57,879 bases of DNA from a virus (Duplodnaviria > Caudoviricetes): the IMG/VR virus record IMGVR_UViG_3300018072_000001, positions 1 to 57,879 of that record; one strand, written 5' to 3'. Below are positions 1 through 8,744 of the stretch, piece by piece (the first letter of the stretch is position 1; each line of letters starts with the position of its first letter). A program made the translations under genes and the position numbers. The notes below the pieces were generated by a model that saw only the letters and a list, made by a program, of their open reading frames with translations, did no database searches and was not told where the DNA came from.

Positions 1-123
1 CCTTGTAGATTCCGCTCCACCAACACCGGAGTCCGTCCTCGCCTACAAACGAAAGATCGGCAAGGAACATGACGGCGGTGATTGGGGACTTCAATTTCAA
101 CATCTCACTACCGGCTGGCACAG
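1..123. repeat. Terminal direct repeat, copy 1 (identical to 57757-57879); circular assembly overlap
   Basis: ccttgtagat...ggctggcacag is identical at both ends, and an ORF reads through the junction in frame. Confidence 0.95.
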
Positions 124-625
124 TCAACTTCCGACACCACGAGTCGAGTATAACCAACATGTCAAAGCCGTGGACCTGTCTGGACACCGACTCAGGATGG
201 CGGACGGCCGCATCATTGAATACGACGTACTGCTGAACACCGTCCCCTTGGACGCGTTCCTTAAACTCTGCCTCATCTCACCGCCGATCTATACTCCCTG
301 GAAACAAGATCGTATCTACCTGCGCACAGAAACCTTGGACGGTTCCTACGCCGGAATGCGATTGAATTATCTCTCCGATCCCACTAGTCGATTCTACCGT
401 CAGACACTCACCGCCGATAAAATGTTCTTCGAGACCTTGGAACCCGGTCCGGATGTGAAGCCGCTCCCACTCGGCAAAATTCATCCGCATCCTCAGAGCG
501 AAGATGTGCTCCGGGCATTGAAGGTGTTCGACACGTTCTGTTTCGGTCGTTTTGCGACATGGCGACCAGATGAGCTCGCGCATCAGACTTGGCAGAACAT
601 TCTCGAATGGAAGGGGACGCTGTGA
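2..625 (+). CDS. FAD-dependent oxidoreductase, C-terminal part (UDP-galactopyranose mutase / protoporphyrinogen oxidase-like)
   Basis: EYDVLLNTVPLD and C-terminal FGRFATW resemble the YDxLISTxPLD and GRFxxW motifs of this flavoprotein group. Confidence 0.7.
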   Translation, partial: LVDSAPPTPESVLAYKRKIGKEHDGGDWGLQFQHLTTGWHSQLPTPRVEYNQHVKAVDLSGHRLRMADGRIIEYDVLLNTVPLDAFLKLCLISPPIYTPWKQDRIYLRTETLDGSYAGMRLNYLSDPTSRFYRQTLTADKMFFETLEPGPDVKPLPLGKIHPHPQSEDVLRALKVFDTFCFGRFATWRPDELAHQTWQNILEWKGTL

Positions 626-1623
626 ACTTCAAGGCTATGCTCGAAGATCAACGAGCCTTCAACCAACAGATCTTTCCGGGTGGACTCGCGTGCCCAGTTG
701 ATAGTGAGTCCGATACCGATCGGTTCCGAGTGCGGTTGAAAGATCTGGCACTCGGAATGATCGAAGAGACCGGAGAGTTCCTCCGCACCTTCGAATGGAA
801 GTCTCATCGTCGTCGGCAGGGCAAGCTTCAGAACGTCGCCCACTCACACGAAGAACTTATCGACATGTTCAAGTACTGGTTGTCCTGTGCCGAGCTCGCA
901 GAGTTCCCGATGGATCGGTTGGAGGAACTCTACTACGCCAAGAGTCGGGTGGTGCAGTATCGCTACCAAGAAGAGTGGATGAAGCGGATTGACGGTCCAT
1001 GTGTCTTGGTGGACATTGACAATGTGTTGGCGGACTACATTCAAGGTGTCTGTCTCTGGGCAAAGGAACACGCACCGACCTTGCTCAAACTGTCTAACAC
1101 CTTGACCATTCGACTAGCCGACAATTTAGATCGATTACGAGCTTCACATGATTACGTGAACGCTTCTAGTGTCGGTCTATCAGCCAGCGAATGGAATGCG
1201 GTCAAGCACGGCTTCCGCACGCAAGGCGGGAAACGAACCTTGCCAGTGTTCCCTGACGCCAAGATCTTTCTCGACTGGTGCCGACGTCAAGACTGGAAAA
1301 TCATTCTAGTCACTAGCAGGCCGATCGATCGCTACCCGAACATCTTCACTGACACGCTAACCTGGCTTCACAACAACGACCTGCCATTCGACTATCTCTG
1401 GTGGGCTGACGATAAGGCTCGACGGCTGGATGAGTACGGCGACATCCCACTGCGGCTCCATGTGGTGTTCGCGGTGGATGACGACCTAACGTTCATTAAC
1501 CAGTATCGGACCAAGGGTATTCGCTGCTACTGGCTCAATCGTCGGACCTCAGAAACCCCTACCCACATCTCGGTTGTTCACTCACTGATGGAACTCATGG
1601 AGAAGGAGAAGGTACATGCCTGA
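622..1623 (+). CDS. Fusion of all-alpha NTP pyrophosphohydrolase (dimeric dUTPase/dCTPase/MazG-like) and HAD 5'-deoxyribonucleotidase-like domain
   Basis: EETGE...WKSH...EELID acidic motifs; DIDNVLAD (HAD motif I), VTSR (motif II), VDDD (motif IV); GTG start overlaps the upstream stop. Confidence 0.8.
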   Translation: MNFKAMLEDQRAFNQQIFPGGLACPVDSESDTDRFRVRLKDLALGMIEETGEFLRTFEWKSHRRRQGKLQNVAHSHEELIDMFKYWLSCAELAEFPMDRLEELYYAKSRVVQYRYQEEWMKRIDGPCVLVDIDNVLADYIQGVCLWAKEHAPTLLKLSNTLTIRLADNLDRLRASHDYVNASSVGLSASEWNAVKHGFRTQGGKRTLPVFPDAKIFLDWCRRQDWKIILVTSRPIDRYPNIFTDTLTWLHNNDLPFDYLWWADDKARRLDEYGDIPLRLHVVFAVDDDLTFINQYRTKGIRCYWLNRRTSETPTHISVVHSLMELMEKEKVHA

Positions 1624-6630: not shown

Positions 6631-6632
6631 CC

Positions 6633-8744
6633 GTGCTCAAACTTATAAACAAAACGCTCATCTTCGATACGGAGACCACTGGCCTGTGGCCGTGGCCGTC
6701 GGCCTTCCGACAGAAGGTCGGTATCTACCCGGACCGACCGTTCATGTTCGTGTTCACCAACCTGGACGGTGAAACGGTGACGGTGCGAGCACCGAAAATA
6801 AATCCCTACACGAGACAGGTGAAGTACAAAGGCATCGAAGCCGAACTTCGGTGGTTCAAGAAGATTGTCAGTGACCCAAACATGCGTGTAGTGTGTCACT
6901 CTGCACGGTTCGATCGGGCGATGACGATTCAGTCTGACATTCAGGCGGACTGGCGCTGCAAGATTCATGACACCAGAATCATGGCGCGGGTCGCCAATCC
7001 CACTAACGAGCCGACCTACTCCTTAAAGCCGTTGGCGAAGAAGTATCTCGGCATCAGTGACGCTGATCAGAAAAAACTTCAACATGGACTGGCTAGTGCC
7101 AGACGTATCGCCAAGAGTAAAGAGTGGGCGATCGCAACAAAGGAGACGCACGGTCAAAAACCTGCAGAGGCGGACTACTGGTTGCCAGAGCTTCGGAATC
7201 TGGTGAACATCTACGGCGGCACTGACGGGGTGCGAACGGCCGGCATGTATCGATACTACCGAAAGATTTTCGACCACAACAAGAAATTCGGTGGACGACT
7301 CTGGGAAGTGTATCGGTGGGAACTCCGTACCATGCGTACGGCCATGGACATGGAACGGGTCGGGATGTCGTACCTGTCCGATGCCGGTTTAGCGTTGAAA
7401 GAGTTCTACACCGACTACATGAAACAACATCGTCGTACCATCAATAAGATGGGTTACCGCGATCTCAATCTGCAATCACCGAAGCAGATGGTAGAGTTGT
7501 TCATCAACGATCTCGGCTATGAGGCGGAACATGAAACCAAAGGTGGTAAGTACGAACGACCGCAACCGAAGATCGACGCCGAACAACTCATGGTCTGGGC
7601 TAGAGGGTCCGCGGCCGGTGCCGACGTTGACGGAGATGCGAAGGACGGTTGCAAACTTTCGAGAGCAGTTCTTGAATGGAAAGCCGGAAAGAAAGTCATT
7701 GAGTATATCGATAGCTACGAATTCTTCAAATGCCTTCGCGCTAACGGTTCGGCACTGTTACATCCGGCATGGGACTCGGCTGGAGCGAAGACCGGACGGT
7801 TCAGTTGTCATGATCCGAACACTCAACAAATTGCATCTGCAGAGACTTCTCGCCGTCATAGCCACATTCGTGCTCGACAGCGCGAATGCTACGGTCCGCG
7901 ACCAGGCTACGTATGGTACATGCCAGACTATTCTCAGATTGAAGTCTGGGTCTTCGCGTTCGAAGCCAATGAAGAGTCGATGAAACAAGCGCTGCTCTCG
8001 GGCAGCGACTTCCATCTCTCGACCGCGCGAGCAGCCTGGCATGATCGGAACGACTTCTGTACCTGCGGCCGATGGAAGGAAGTCGAGCAAGAGATGCGGC
8101 GCAACAAGAAGTTCGTGTTGATATGGGATGTCGAGAAGACCTTACACAAGAAAGGCTGCCTCATCAAGTGGTGGCGGCAACGCGCCAAGATGATCCTGTT
8201 CTCGAGATTGTATGGCGGTGGTGTGGGTAAGATCGCGTTCCTCATTCGCTGCACGCTGAAAGAAGCAAAGCGGTTCATTGCCGAGTTCAACGAGAACCTA
8301 CCGGGTGTGAAGGAGTACATGAACGAGACCGTGGGCCGCGTGCGAGACACCGGCGTATTGGTCAATCTGTTTGGTCGTGAGTATCCGATTGATAAGTCCT
8401 TCGCCTACAAGGCCGTGAACTATCAGATTCAAGGTAGCAGTGCGGAGATCATGAAACGGGCGATCGTGCGCACCAATGAACACCTCGTCACAAACTATCC
8501 GGGCATCTGGACGCGTGATGACGCCGGAATCGAGAACTACGAAGGGTCGCACGTGGTCGGTACCGTGCACGATGAAGAGATCCTAGAGATCCATCGAGAT
8601 GACCACAGCAAGCGATTGATGCGTGAACTGATCCAGATCATGCAAATGGATTCGCATGTGGTGCCCAACCTACCGGTACCGTTACCGGTCGGCATGAAAT
8701 GGACGCAGACCAACTGGTCTGAAGCCAAAGAAATTTCTTTGTGA
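6633..8744 (+). CDS. polA: DNA polymerase family A (3'-5' exonuclease + polymerase; no 5' nuclease)
   Basis: DTETTG (ExoI), HDT, TGRFS, DYSQIE (motif A), RQRAK...YG (motif B), VHDE (motif C). Confidence 0.93.
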   Translation: MLKLINKTLIFDTETTGLWPWPSAFRQKVGIYPDRPFMFVFTNLDGETVTVRAPKINPYTRQVKYKGIEAELRWFKKIVSDPNMRVVCHSARFDRAMTIQSDIQADWRCKIHDTRIMARVANPTNEPTYSLKPLAKKYLGISDADQKKLQHGLASARRIAKSKEWAIATKETHGQKPAEADYWLPELRNLVNIYGGTDGVRTAGMYRYYRKIFDHNKKFGGRLWEVYRWELRTMRTAMDMERVGMSYLSDAGLALKEFYTDYMKQHRRTINKMGYRDLNLQSPKQMVELFINDLGYEAEHETKGGKYERPQPKIDAEQLMVWARGSAAGADVDGDAKDGCKLSRAVLEWKAGKKVIEYIDSYEFFKCLRANGSALLHPAWDSAGAKTGRFSCHDPNTQQIASAETSRRHSHIRARQRECYGPRPGYVWYMPDYSQIEVWVFAFEANEESMKQALLSGSDFHLSTARAAWHDRNDFCTCGRWKEVEQEMRRNKKFVLIWDVEKTLHKKGCLIKWWRQRAKMILFSRLYGGGVGKIAFLIRCTLKEAKRFIAEFNENLPGVKEYMNETVGRVRDTGVLVNLFGREYPIDKSFAYKAVNYQIQGSSAEIMKRAIVRTNEHLVTNYPGIWTRDDAGIENYEGSHVVGTVHDEEILEIHRDDHSKRLMRELIQIMQMDSHVVPNLPVPLPVGMKWTQTNWSEAKEISL

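What the first reader, a model, noticed from the sequence alone, without database searches (positions are those of the whole stretch)
2..8744. Candidate undescribed phage nucleotide/DNA-modification pathway built around a non-canonical ThyX (operon starts at 57557 and crosses the contig junction)
Seen: a tightly coupled plus-strand run of FAD oxidoreductase (57557->625), dUTPase/dCTPase-like + HAD nucleotidase fusion, ThyX homolog, [Sak4, SSB], VOC-fold protein, DUF1599/Nmad1-like protein, SDR, then PolA and primase-helicase. Established: phages that replace a base usually pair a thymidylate-synthase-type enzyme with enzymes that remove the canonical dNTP/dNMP, and DUF1599 is associated with nucleotide-modification loci. 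The characterised pyrimidine pathways I know (hmU, hmC, glycosyl-hmC, amino-thymidines) use ThyA-fold enzymes plus kinases or glycosyltransferases, none of which is recognisable here. Inference: the flavoprotein, SDR and VOC enzyme make a small sugar- or carbonyl-derived donor, the ThyX-fold enzyme attaches it to a pyrimidine nucleotide, and the pyrophosphatase/HAD fusion depletes the competing canonical nucleotide. That would give a new modified base, plausibly as anti-restriction or anti-CRISPR armour.
Basis: partly seen in the sequence, partly recalled or inferred. Interest (0 to 1): 0.92.

Follow-up and report, generated by a model that had tools for sequence, protein, structure and literature searches.

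The report
Phage ThyX gene with conserved helpers
An uncultured soil/sediment phage carries a thymidylate-synthase-like (ThyX) gene flanked by two sets of helper enzymes that turn up beside ThyX genes in many other phages, including over a hundred cultured ones, so a possible new DNA-building-block pathway can now be tested at the bench.

Summary
The gene run is real. The window is a circularly assembled phage genome (123-bp end overlap), and the flavoprotein ORF does cross the junction. "SSB" is unconfirmed.

The six genes are not one invariant unit. They form two sets, and each recurs beside ThyX genes independently.
- Set A (flavoprotein + pyrophosphatase/HAD) precedes the ThyX-like gene in every related contig with enough flank. 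It also recurs in cultured actinophages such as Lambo, Visconti, Cybele and Wentworth.
- Set B (Nmad1 + VOC + SDR) is present in about half of the relatives. It also sits next to ordinary-length ThyX genes in unrelated phages, and Nmad1-VOC fusions exist.
- Sister lineages carry a glycosyltransferase, with or without a radical-SAM enzyme, instead of VOC + SDR.

Nothing shows a modified base. There is no kinase, ThyA-type hydroxymethylase or DNA transferase, and three restriction-type palindromes are strongly avoided. I rate dedicated dTMP supply at about 0.45 and a new ThyX-based base pathway at about 0.3.

The parts
57557..57879 (+). 5' part of the small UGM/amine-oxidase-like flavoprotein gene ('FADox', 274 aa). 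It continues at window base 124 because bases 1-123 repeat the last 123.
   Evidence: An uninterrupted identical copy is L001:1188-2009.
1..625 (+). 3' part of the FADox gene. Bases 1-123 are the assembly overlap; the stop codon is at 623-625.
622..1623 (+). Fusion of an all-alpha NTP pyrophosphatase (MazG / dimeric-dUTPase-like, about residues 1-130) with a HAD phosphatase (NT5C-like in relatives). The GTG start overlaps the FADox stop; an in-frame ATG at 607 is an alternative start.
1616..2875 (+). ThyX-family protein of 419 aa. It has an N-terminal extension, the invariant loop RTRLGAGFMQHGGRDNDWRHR, and an optional Cys/His insert near the C-terminus.
3029..3904 (+). Sak4-like AAA_24 recombination ATPase.
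3929..4885 (+). Highly acidic protein with a conserved N-terminal 140 aa.
4893..4940 (+). Hairpin of 15 pairs followed by a U-rich tract, resembling an intrinsic terminator. It separates the ThyX block from the E-F-SDR-PolA block.
   Evidence: The simple scan did not list it.
4948..5505 (+). 'E': VOC-fold protein, closest to methylmalonyl-CoA epimerase and Glyoxalase_4.
5483..5911 (+). 'F': all-alpha protein, a divergent DUF1599/Nmad1 domain.
5908..6630 (+). Classical short-chain dehydrogenase/reductase.
6633..8744 (+). Family A DNA polymerase with a 3'-5' exonuclease domain.
8754..10994 (+). Putative primase-helicase. Family hits are weak, but the gene is conserved in relatives.
55327..55665 (+). 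Second, stand-alone MazG-like NTP pyrophosphohydrolase, 1.9 kb upstream of FADox.
   Evidence: phrog_4856, E 1.6e-13.

Best explanation
This is the nucleotide-supply arm of the phage's replication module. It is built around a flavin-dependent thymidylate synthase (ThyX family) that has acquired two dedicated helper sets.

Working model, with what is shown and what is inferred:
1. Shown: the domain identities and their conserved linkage.
2. Inferred: the all-alpha pyrophosphatase domain turns dUTP (or a related dNTP) into the monophosphate.
3. Inferred: the ThyX-family enzyme passes a one-carbon unit from methylene-tetrahydrofolate, through reduced flavin, to C5 of dUMP. The product is most likely dTMP.
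4. Inferred: the UGM-like flavoprotein is an obligate partner that serves the flavin chemistry of this ThyX branch.
5. Inferred: the NT5C-like HAD domain drains an unwanted pyrimidine dNMP.
6. Inferred: the Nmad1-VOC-SDR set is a second ThyX-associated unit, acting on the same nucleotide or on the enzyme's cofactor.

On this reading the virion DNA holds ordinary A, C, G and T.
For: The ThyX domain is clear.
- Pfam Thy1 scores 73.5 bits against a cut-off of 24.8.
- The stretch aligned to T. maritima ThyX keeps both arginines in ARRVLP and ANRLEH..DWEI. Their role in dUMP binding is recalled from memory, not tested here.
- The Q..R.R...Q..GR frame is kept.

No other thymidylate synthase is present: PF00303 has no match in the window record.

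No dNMP kinase, DNA kinase, amino-acid:DNA transferase or glycosyltransferase was seen among the window ORFs scanned. The only product that host enzymes are sure to carry forward is therefore dTMP.

Set B also sits beside ordinary-length ThyX genes. In L060 the ThyX is 245 aa and scores 118.6 bits on Thy1. It is followed by an SDR, F, VOC and then DnaE.

The His-to-Thr change in RHR is shared with the annotated ThyX of PB1 and ECML-117.

Three restriction-type palindromes are strongly avoided: GTCGAC 0 against 15.5 expected, CCCGGG 0 against 7.0, CCGCGG 3 against 16.5. The phage therefore still evades some restriction by losing sites.

My paper searches found no report of modified DNA in the cultured actinophages that carry the same gene set.
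Against: - An ordinary ThyX needs none of these helpers. Phages with PB1-type ThyX showed no flavoprotein hit (one search lists actinophages only).
- A dNTP-to-nucleoside fusion would waste dUMP if dTMP supply were the only aim.
- The family fails NCBI's thyX equivalog cut-off, at 58.7 bits against 87.9.
- The motif Ser/Thr, present in 9 of 9 other ThyX proteins aligned, is an invariant Gly here.
- The accessory genes vary by lineage in the way tailoring genes of DNA-hypermodification clusters do: VOC+SDR, glycosyltransferase with or without radical SAM, or methyltransferase+SDR.
- F belongs to a family named for nucleotide modification.
Confidence: 0.45

Rival explanations
1. A new base-replacement route built on the ThyX fold. 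The ThyX-like enzyme and the UGM-like flavoprotein make a C5-substituted dUMP other than dTMP, for example 5-hydroxymethyl-dUMP formed by hydration of the exocyclic-methylene intermediate. The pyrophosphatase/HAD fusion strips the competing canonical nucleotide down to the nucleoside. Lineage-specific enzymes then tailor the base, either before or after replication: Nmad1-VOC-SDR here, glycosyltransferase with or without radical SAM in sister phages, methyltransferase+SDR in actinophages.
For: - The flavoprotein, pyrophosphatase/HAD and ThyX-like genes occur together. Counts are 13 of 13 loci from the ThyX side and 11 of 12 from the flavoprotein side.
- The same flavoprotein family (hhalign prob 80%, E 1.3e-5 over 223 columns) occurs in 126 cultured actinophage records.
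- Genus tallies match those of the long ThyX-like gene: Microbacterium 36 and 36, Mycobacterium 32 and 32, Gordonia 46 and 49. In Microbacterium phages the two genes are adjacent.
- The HAD partner reaches Pfam's NT5C threshold (deoxy-pyrimidine 5'-nucleotidase family) in Visconti gp64, at 31.9 bits against 24.8. From memory, this resembles the dTTPase/dTMPase exclusion enzymes of hmU and U phages.
- The sister-clade glycosyltransferase hits phrog_842, 'beta-glucosyl-HMC-alpha-glucosyltransferase', at E 1.8e-6. It also hits Pfam TAGT at E 1e-4, below cut-off.
- F is a divergent Nmad1 domain.
- The invariant loop HGGRDNDWRHR and the Ser-to-Gly change are specific to the family.
- There is precedent for thymidylate-synthase relatives switching chemistry: a ThyA homologue with a flavin makes 5-hydroxy-dCMP (PMC13326640; abstract and passages read).
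Against: - No kinase for a new dNMP and no DNA-level transferase were found in this window.
- The glycosyltransferase similarity covers only the N-terminal 90 or so residues, and the gene is absent from this phage.
- Set B also accompanies ordinary-looking ThyX genes.
- Site avoidance includes the T-containing GTCGAC.
- The phage assembles from many standard metagenomes. This is weak evidence, since many modified DNAs sequence normally.
- No measurement of any virion DNA is available.
Confidence: 0.3
2. The helpers serve cofactors rather than the nucleotide. The SDR and VOC protein make or recycle a reduced pterin/folate-type one-carbon carrier, and the flavoprotein supplies reduced flavin. 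This lets ThyX work independently of host pools. Nmad1 is a nucleotide- or cofactor-binding adaptor.
For: - ThyX needs reduced flavin and a methylene-pterin donor (established enzymology, recalled).
- SDR, F and VOC lie directly after a normal ThyX in L057/L058 and L060/L061, and F alone follows one in L059.
- F has invariant Lys/Arg residues and no acidic metal motif, which fits a binding role better than a hydrolase role.
- The SDR is a generic classical reductase.
Against: - The SDR shows no specific likeness to pteridine reductases among 70 PDB hits.
- The window holds no pterin or folate biosynthesis genes.
- ThyX releases tetrahydrofolate, so no reductase is needed (recalled).
- The VOC protein's nearest structures are acyl-CoA epimerases and dioxygenases.
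Confidence: 0.12
3. The genes are merely neighbours in a mosaic replication module and have no shared pathway.
For: - Phage replication modules commonly collect unrelated metabolic genes.
- A terminator-like hairpin splits the run.
- E-F-SDR is missing from 6 of 14 relatives.
Against: - The same gene types recur around three different polymerase contexts: two PolA types and DnaE.
- Domain fusions exist between F and VOC, and in one protein between F and an SDR domain. Of 78 proteins scanned, 16 carry Glyoxalase_4 and 1 carries adh_short.
- Start and stop codons overlap at four junctions.
Confidence: 0.08

Closest known systems
Flavin-dependent thymidylate synthase ThyX (Pfam PF02511; e.g. Thermotoga maritima TM0449, PDB 1kq4/1o26; phage PB1 gp61)
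   Same: - It has a Thy1 domain.
- The C-terminal half aligns to T. maritima ThyX residues 131-218, with both arginines kept.
- It shares the Q..R.R...Q..GR frame.
- It is the only thymidylate-synthase-type gene in the genome.
   Different: - It is 419 aa against about 230-300 aa.
- It scores below the TIGR02170 equivalog cut-off.
- The motif Ser/Thr is replaced by an invariant Gly, followed by the invariant sequence DNDWRHR.
- It is always preceded by a UGM-like flavoprotein and a pyrophosphatase/HAD fusion, which canonical ThyX genes lack.
'Oxidoreductase' + 'ThyX-like thymidylate synthase' genes of cultured actinophages (Gordonia phage Lambo gp67/gp81, Mycobacterium phage Visconti gp63/gp70, Microbacterium phage Cybele gp52/gp53, Streptomyces phage Wentworth gp56). 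These are annotated but, as far as my searches show, not studied.
   Same: - The small flavoprotein is homologous.
- A HAD/NT5C-like gene lies directly after it.
- An SDR, a MazG and an F-like small protein (phrog_10271/1485) lie in the same block, beside the replicative polymerase.
- None has ThyA.
   Different: - The polymerase is DnaE rather than PolA.
- MazG and HAD are separate genes.
- A methyltransferase is present, and no VOC was detected.
- Their ThyX-like proteins keep the motif Ser and have a different C-terminal extension.
Pre-replicative base-replacement pathways of T-even, SPO1/SP8 and PBS2 phages (dCTPase/dUTPase + ThyA-fold hydroxymethylase + dTMP nucleotidase). Recalled, not tested here.
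   Same: The logic of pairing a C5-modifying thymidylate-synthase relative with enzymes that pull a canonical dNTP down to dNMP or nucleoside.
   Different: - Those pathways use ThyA-fold enzymes, and a dedicated kinase or host kinase step is known. Here the fold is ThyX and no ThyA or kinase is present.
- No modified base has been shown here.
Thymidine hypermodification clusters (Lee et al., PMC8989533; abstract and passages read)
   Same: Variable sets of tailoring enzymes (radical SAM, FAD oxidoreductase, others) cluster with a thymidylate-synthase relative, and the combinations differ between phages.
   Different: - The defining genes are absent: ThyA-type dUMP hydroxymethylase, 5-HMUDK P-loop kinase and aGPT-Pplase transferase.
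- Tblastn with the Lambo flavoprotein listed no Pseudomonas phage among its 126 records, so close similarity to the PaMx11 FAD lyase is unlikely. No direct comparison was made.
UDP-galactopyranose mutase (PDB 4dsg, 3ute)
   Same: It is the best solved-structure relative of the flavoprotein (E 4e-8). Both share the Rossmann GxGxxG motif and a C-terminal GR(F/L)..W(R) segment (alignment).
   Different: - The flavoprotein is 274 aa against 380-510 aa.
- Only about 100 residues align significantly.
- The family is found almost only in viruses.
- No sugar-nucleotide genes lie nearby in this window.

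Membership tests
ThyX / flavin-dependent thymidylate synthase | Thy1 domain above Pfam's gathering score | tested here: met
   PF02511 at E 2.5e-20, 73.5 bits against a cut-off of 24.8, on residues 89-293. All 120 listed homologues carry PF02511.
ThyX / flavin-dependent thymidylate synthase | Score above NCBI's equivalog cut-off (TIGR02170 thyX) | tested here: not met
   58.7 bits against a cut-off of 87.9.
ThyX / flavin-dependent thymidylate synthase | ThyX motif RHR(x7-8)S (motif recalled from memory; positions read from alignments) | tested here: not met
   The protein reads RTR....GGR. The His is Thr, as it also is in the PB1 and ECML-117 ThyX. The Ser/Thr present in 9 of 9 other ThyX proteins aligned is Gly, and it is invariant in 23 of 23 family members.
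ThyX / flavin-dependent thymidylate synthase | Substrate-binding arginines of the C-terminal half (T. maritima numbering recalled) | tested here: met
   ARRVLP and ANRLEH..DWEI align to ARIVLP and LNLRADSHAQWEI of 1kq4. R241/R242 and R268 are invariant.
ThyX / flavin-dependent thymidylate synthase | Converts dUMP to dTMP using CH2-THF, FAD and NADPH | not testable with these tools
   This needs an enzyme assay or thyA complementation.
DUF1599 / Nmad1 (PF07659), for protein F | Direct match to the Pfam model | tested here: not met
   No Pfam family matched the window protein, even at E up to 10. None of its 30 closer homologues carries a precomputed Pfam domain.
DUF1599 / Nmad1 (PF07659), for protein F | Transitive homology through intermediate sequences | tested here: met
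   The F profile found 263 proteins at E <= 0.001. I scanned 77 of the 150 listed, plus F itself, and 9 matched PF07659 with best E 2e-6. 12 of the 30 nearest Atlas clusters are DUF1599 clusters. The fold search was uninformative for this helical protein.
VOC superfamily (glyoxalase/bleomycin resistance/dioxygenase), for protein E | Paired beta-alpha-beta-beta-beta fold | tested here: met
   The model has pLDDT 94.6. Foldseek gave 56 PDB matches at E <= 0.001, led by methylmalonyl-CoA epimerase 3gm5 at E 3e-8. 8 of 76 sequence homologues carry PF13669.
VOC superfamily, for protein E | Metal-binding His/Glu set | tested here: inconclusive
   E77, E79, H102, H106 and H136 are invariant in 32 sequences, but they were not mapped onto a solved active site.
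Classical SDR | adh_short domain, TGxxxGxG and YxxxK | tested here: met
   PF00106 at E 4.6e-31. TGASAGLG and YNCSK can be read in the translation.
HAD phosphatase / NT5C-type 5'-deoxynucleotidase | HAD motifs I-IV | tested here: met
   D131 and D133 (DxD), T231-S232-R233, K265 and D286-D287 are invariant or nearly so in 13 sequences.
HAD phosphatase / NT5C-type 5'-deoxynucleotidase | Match to Pfam NT5C (PF06941) | tested here: inconclusive
   The window protein has no Pfam hit. Its actinophage relatives do: Visconti gp64 scores 31.9 bits against a cut-off of 24.8, and Lambo gp68 scores 22.1 bits, below cut-off.
All-alpha NTP pyrophosphatase (MazG / dimeric dUTPase / dCTPase) | Family match and conserved acidic metal ligands | tested here: inconclusive
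   phrog_173 at E 1.4e-6. The profile against PDB dimeric dUTPases reaches only E 0.007. E49, E78 and D81 are conserved.
UDP-galactopyranose mutase | Full-length three-domain architecture | tested here: not met
   Only profile positions 106-206 align (E 4e-8), and the protein is 274 aa against 484-513 aa.
Known thymidine hypermodification pathway (PMC8989533) | ThyA-type dUMP hydroxymethylase | tested here: not met
   PF00303 has no match in the window record or in 4 related records, while 10 of 14 control genomes were detected.
Known thymidine hypermodification pathway (PMC8989533) | 5-hmdU DNA kinase and aGPT-Pplase transferase | tested here: inconclusive
   No kinase or transferase family was hit among the window ORFs scanned. 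Many small early ORFs have no family at all.

The most novel reading that the evidence does not exclude
The ThyX fold has been recruited, together with a virus-specific UGM-like flavoprotein, to make a non-canonical C5-substituted pyrimidine deoxynucleotide. That nucleotide replaces or supplements thymidine in the DNA of a widespread soil/sediment phage clade and of more than 100 cultured actinophages. Lineage-specific tailoring would come from Nmad1-VOC-SDR, glycosyltransferase/radical-SAM, or methyltransferase sets. This would be the first flavin/ThyX-based DNA base-modification pathway.
Probability: 0.3. Interest if true: 0.9.

Novelty: new variant of a known kind. Interest (0 to 1): 0.62.

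Why it matters
All characterised pyrimidine replacement and hypermodification routes in phages start from ThyA-fold enzymes. A ThyX-based route would be a second, independent origin of modified DNA bases and a new flavin chemistry.

Even if the product is plain dTMP, there is an unstudied dependency. A whole branch of phage ThyX genes never occurs without a small UGM-like flavoprotein, in every locus and record examined here. A second set (Nmad1-VOC-SDR) repeatedly follows ThyX genes. This bears on how ThyX, an antibiotic target, is reduced and supplied in vivo.

The practical gain from this work is that the same gene set occurs in cultured phages of harmless laboratory hosts (Mycolicibacterium smegmatis, Gordonia, Microbacterium, Streptomyces). 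One nucleoside LC-MS run and a thyA complementation would therefore settle the question.

Tried and rejected
- Nucleotide search of the stretch against cultured phages (megablast) found no match.
- Tblastn of the window flavoprotein against cultured phages found no match. The link to actinophage 'oxidoreductases' came only from a profile comparison.
- Complex prediction of the flavoprotein with the ThyX-like protein gave no verdict: score 0.02 against a mark of 0.32, and the controls were not run. This is evidence neither way.
- The fold search for F gave only generic helical-hairpin matches with both Foldseek PDB and VIA-align wide. It says nothing about family.
- hhalign of E and F against single actinophage proteins gave only weak hints for F: Lambo gp70 prob 13%, Wentworth gp54 16.5%, the L006 157-aa ORF 3%. 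It gave nothing for E. The F-like link to the actinophage proteins rests instead on shared PHROG families and remains soft.
- A PDB profile search for the sister-clade glycosyltransferase gave nothing useful.
- The SDR against PDB gave generic reductases only, with no pteridine-reductase signal.
- I looked for sequencing runs that could show base modification. All 24 runs are held as assembled contigs, which cannot show it.
- Papers: nine full-text searches found no study of the long ThyX-like/oxidoreductase pair, nor of DNA modification in these actinophages. 'Not in print' rests on these searches of an open-access library only. The paper that defined the Nmad domains could not be fetched by DOI, so what I say about Nmad1's original description comes from memory and from the Pfam name.
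- I rejected the idea that loss of the RHR histidine marks a new function, because PB1 and ECML-117 ThyX share it.
- I rejected treating the C-terminal Cys/His insert as essential. It is absent from at least 5 of 23 family members aligned.

Full report
**What is there.** The window is a complete phage genome assembled as a circle. Its first and last 123 bases are identical, and IMG/VR classes the record as having direct terminal repeats. The true length is 57,756 bp and GC is 54.8%.

Structural genes, including a large terminase, lie on the minus strand from about 12 to 38.5 kb. Early and replication genes lie on the plus strand from about 42 kb, across the junction, to 11.4 kb. The finding covers the last part of that arm.

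The flavoprotein ORF begins at 57557 and ends at 625. With the overlap removed it is 274 aa. An uninterrupted, identical copy exists on another contig at L001:1188-2009.

**Identity of each gene.**
- *Flavoprotein ("FADox").* It starts with VVVIGGGFVG and ends with CFGRFATWRPDELAH. A profile of 11 homologues hits UDP-galactopyranose mutases best (4dsg, E 4e-8), but over only about 100 residues. The ESM Atlas holds a model (pTM 0.80) that overlays amine-oxidase/protoporphyrinogen-oxidase-type flavoproteins at TM about 0.8. Its nearest clusters are almost purely viral.
- *Fusion protein (622-1623).* It joins an all-alpha NTP pyrophosphatase (phrog_173, E 1.4e-6; weak profile hits to dimeric dUTPases and dCTPase, E 0.007-0.06) to a HAD phosphatase. 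HAD motifs I-IV are invariant.
- *ThyX-like protein (1616-2875, 419 aa).* It has a clear Thy1 domain.
- *Sak4* is clear.
- *The "SSB"* is an extremely acidic protein with no family hit.
- *E* is a VOC-fold protein: model pLDDT 94.6, Foldseek best hit methylmalonyl-CoA epimerase at E 3e-8, and distant homologues carrying Glyoxalase_4.
- *F* gives no direct Pfam hit. A profile search of 1.84 billion representatives found 263 relatives. I scanned 78 sequences against Pfam: F itself and 77 of the 150 listed hits, chosen from the more distant and the longer ones. Nine matched DUF1599/Nmad1, 16 Glyoxalase_4, 4 Glyoxalase and 1 adh_short. F is therefore a divergent Nmad1 domain. It occurs fused to VOC domains (alignment of 8 fusions) and, in one protein, to an SDR domain.
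- *The SDR* is a classical one with intact motifs.
- *PolA* is clear. The primase-helicase is weakly supported by family hits but conserved in relatives.

**How tightly the genes are linked.** Start and stop codons overlap at FADox/fusion, fusion/ThyX, E/F and F/SDR. A 153-nt gap follows ThyX. Between the acidic protein and E lies a 15-pair hairpin followed by a U-tract (dG -26.4 kcal/mol, z -4.5). E-F-SDR-PolA may therefore be a separate or attenuated transcription unit.

**Comparative genomics from the ThyX side.** The ThyX-like protein has 306 relatives at E <= 0.001. The 120 listed are 340-510 aa long, all carry PF02511, and many lie on 50-65-kb contigs. IMG/VR gave 24 loci.
- In 13 of 13 loci with a full upstream flank, FADox and the fusion gene directly precede the ThyX-like gene. 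Three more loci are cut off inside these genes, and eight have no upstream flank.
- E-F-SDR is present in 8 of 14 loci with enough downstream flank and absent from 6. The six lack any E, F or SDR match and carry a PolA only 32-35% identical to this one.
- Some rows are near-duplicates of one phage: L004/L005/L006 and L012/L014.
- In L006 the space between ThyX and Sak4 holds a GT-A-type glycosyltransferase. It hits Pfam TAGT at E 1e-4 (below cut-off) and phrog_842, "beta-glucosyl-HMC-alpha-glucosyltransferase", at E 1.8e-6. Both hits cover only the N-terminal 90 or so residues.
- The same space also holds a radical-SAM/SPASM enzyme. A 157-aa ORF before PolA hits phrog_1485.

**From the flavoprotein side.** A scan with the FADox profile returned 23 loci. 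I examined 12 of them, leaving out those already seen.
- 11 have the fusion gene and the ThyX-like gene directly downstream.
- The twelfth is a weak match (26% identity over 130 aa) with a ThyX homologue 6 kb away.
- E-F-SDR occurs in 4, the glycosyltransferase in 3, and neither in 5 (one of these, L045, is too short to tell).

**Cultured relatives.** No cultured phage is close at the DNA level, and the ThyX-like protein finds at most 31% identity over half its length. However, the HAD domain led to actinophages, and their annotation shows the same gene types in one block.
- Gordonia phage Lambo has gp67 oxidoreductase, gp68 HAD, gp71 methyltransferase, gp73 SDR, gp77 DnaE, gp78 MazG and gp81 "ThyX-like thymidylate synthase".
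- Mycobacterium phage Visconti has the same order, and its gp64 reaches the NT5C threshold.
- Microbacterium phage Cybele has the oxidoreductase directly before the ThyX-like gene.
- Streptomyces phage Wentworth has the oxidoreductase-HAD pair plus a Thy1 gene.
- The Lambo oxidoreductase is homologous to FADox: hhalign prob 80%, E 1.3e-5, 223 aligned columns with shared motifs.
- It has relatives in 126 phage records, all actinophages.
- The long ThyX-like gene covers at least 80% of its length in 113 records. Across all 536 matching records the genus tallies match those of the flavoprotein: Microbacterium 36/36, Mycobacterium 32/32, Gordonia 49/46.
- I verified both genes directly in five records: Lambo, Visconti, Cybele, Wentworth and Onyinye.
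- None of the four related records checked (Lambo, Wentworth, Onyinye and the contig of L006), nor the window itself, has a ThyA-type gene.

**Set B stands on its own.** A scan with the Nmad1-VOC fusion profile returned 23 loci, of which I examined 14.
- L057/L058, L059 and L060/L061 are three contexts, since two pairs are near-duplicates. In each, an ordinary-length ThyX of the PB1/ECML-117 type is followed by set B genes: SDR and VOC in L057/L058, F alone in L059, and SDR, F and VOC in L060/L061.
- In L060 the ThyX is 245 aa (Thy1 118.6 bits). The next gene is a DnaE fused to a uracil-DNA glycosylase.
- No FADox or HAD match occurs in those flanks.
- Two further loci with weak F-like matches have a ThyX within 1-5 kb. 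Seven have none.

Two helper sets therefore each recur with ThyX genes independently. This phage has both.

**How odd is the ThyX?** I aligned five annotated phage/virus ThyX proteins, four actinophage proteins and five family members.
- The RHR histidine is His in only 2 of the 5 annotated ThyX. It is Thr in PB1 and ECML-117 and Asn in RHph_Y65. RTR is therefore not special.
- The motif Ser/Thr is present in all 9 non-family proteins but is Gly in the family. It sits inside a block that is invariant in 23 of 23 members, R.R.G....QHGGRDNDWRHR.
- The family scores below NCBI's thyX equivalog cut-off.
- The arginines of the C-terminal half are kept.
- The Cys/His insert is missing from at least 5 of 23 members. 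One member carries a C-terminal acyl-carrier-like domain.

**Evidence on the DNA itself.** None is direct.
- All 24 sequencing runs that hold the stretch are kept as contigs.
- The genome strongly avoids three six-base palindromes: GTCGAC 0 against 15.5 expected, CCCGGG 0 against 7.0, CCGCGG 3 against 16.5. Palindromes overall are near expectation, with mean observed/expected 0.95.
- The phage therefore still escapes some restriction by losing sites. One of those sites contains T, which speaks mildly against bulky, general protection at T.

**Weighing.**
- *For plain dTMP supply:* the ThyX frame is intact. No kinase, DNA transferase or ThyA is present. Set B accompanies normal ThyX genes. Sites are avoided. 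No report of odd DNA exists for the cultured carriers.
- *For a new base:* the flavoprotein always accompanies this ThyX branch in the loci and records examined and was not found beside the other ThyX genes looked at. The dNTP-to-nucleoside fusion is otherwise puzzling. Tailoring-type genes vary by lineage, including a DNA-glucosyltransferase-like enzyme. An Nmad1 domain is present. The active-site loop is specific to the family.
- I put dTMP supply with dedicated helpers at 0.45, a new ThyX-based base at 0.30, cofactor service at 0.12 and mere neighbourhood at 0.08.

**Comparison with what is known and novelty.** The closest known things are ThyX itself, the unstudied actinophage oxidoreductase/ThyX-like pairs, and, by logic only, the ThyA-based replacement and hypermodification pathways.
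- Membership in the ThyX family holds at domain level but fails the equivalog score and the motif.
- Membership in the known hypermodification pathway fails on its defining genes.
- I class the finding as a new variant of a known kind.
- Its value is that a recurrent, unexplained helper set around ThyX has been tied to cultured phages, where one mass-spectrometry run would decide the matter.

Noticed in passing
window 1-123 and 57757-57879: There is an exact 123-bp direct repeat at the two ends (assembly overlap or terminal repeat). Any ORF list that ignores it splits the flavoprotein gene.
   Followed up: yes
whole window: Three six-base palindromes are strongly avoided: GTCGAC 0 observed against 15.5 expected, CCCGGG 0 against 7.0, CCGCGG 3 against 16.5. 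This points to restriction systems of the unknown host.
   Followed up: partly
window 4893-4940: A strong hairpin (dG -26.4 kcal/mol, z -4.5) with a U-rich tail lies between the acidic protein gene and the VOC gene. It is a likely terminator or attenuator inside the 'operon'.
   Followed up: partly
P0012 (homologue of window 1616-2875): One family member of 510 aa carries a C-terminal acyl-carrier-protein-like domain (PF00550). The usual carrier Ser position reads DELD instead of DSLD (the DSLD motif is recalled from memory).
   Followed up: no
L006 11642-13891; also L054, L047, L044: Sister phages have a GT-A glycosyltransferase instead of VOC+SDR. It hits phrog_842 at E 1.8e-6 and TAGT at E 1e-4. 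In two of them it is accompanied by a radical-SAM/SPASM enzyme next to the ThyX-like gene.
   Followed up: partly
L060 9829-13830: A DnaE-type polymerase is fused at its C-terminus to a uracil-DNA glycosylase domain (UDG at E 8.9e-31). It lies directly after a ThyX-SDR-Nmad1-VOC run in an unrelated viral contig.
   Followed up: no
window 10996-11427: An HNH endonuclease gene (HNH_2 at E 8.8e-5) lies directly after the primase-helicase. It is 99% identical in L010 and was not detected in the other related loci.
   Followed up: no
window 48829-50214, 53799-55127, 55662-56147, 56281-57321: The arm upstream of the finding encodes an ATP-dependent DNA ligase, an SNF2-type helicase, a RuvC-like resolvase and a PD-(D/E)XK nuclease. 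The phage therefore carries a fairly complete replication and recombination kit of its own.
   Followed up: partly
L029 5159-5887 (Lambo gp71); L032 5936-6466 (Visconti gp65): In the actinophage versions of the block, a class I methyltransferase sits between the HAD gene and the SDR. The metagenomic clade has nothing comparable.
   Followed up: no
window 3929-4885: This protein has long runs of Asp/Glu interrupted by Lys-rich patches and a weak SH3-like C-terminal hit (MSSS at E 5.5e-4, below cut-off). Only its N-terminal 140 aa are conserved in relatives.
   Followed up: no
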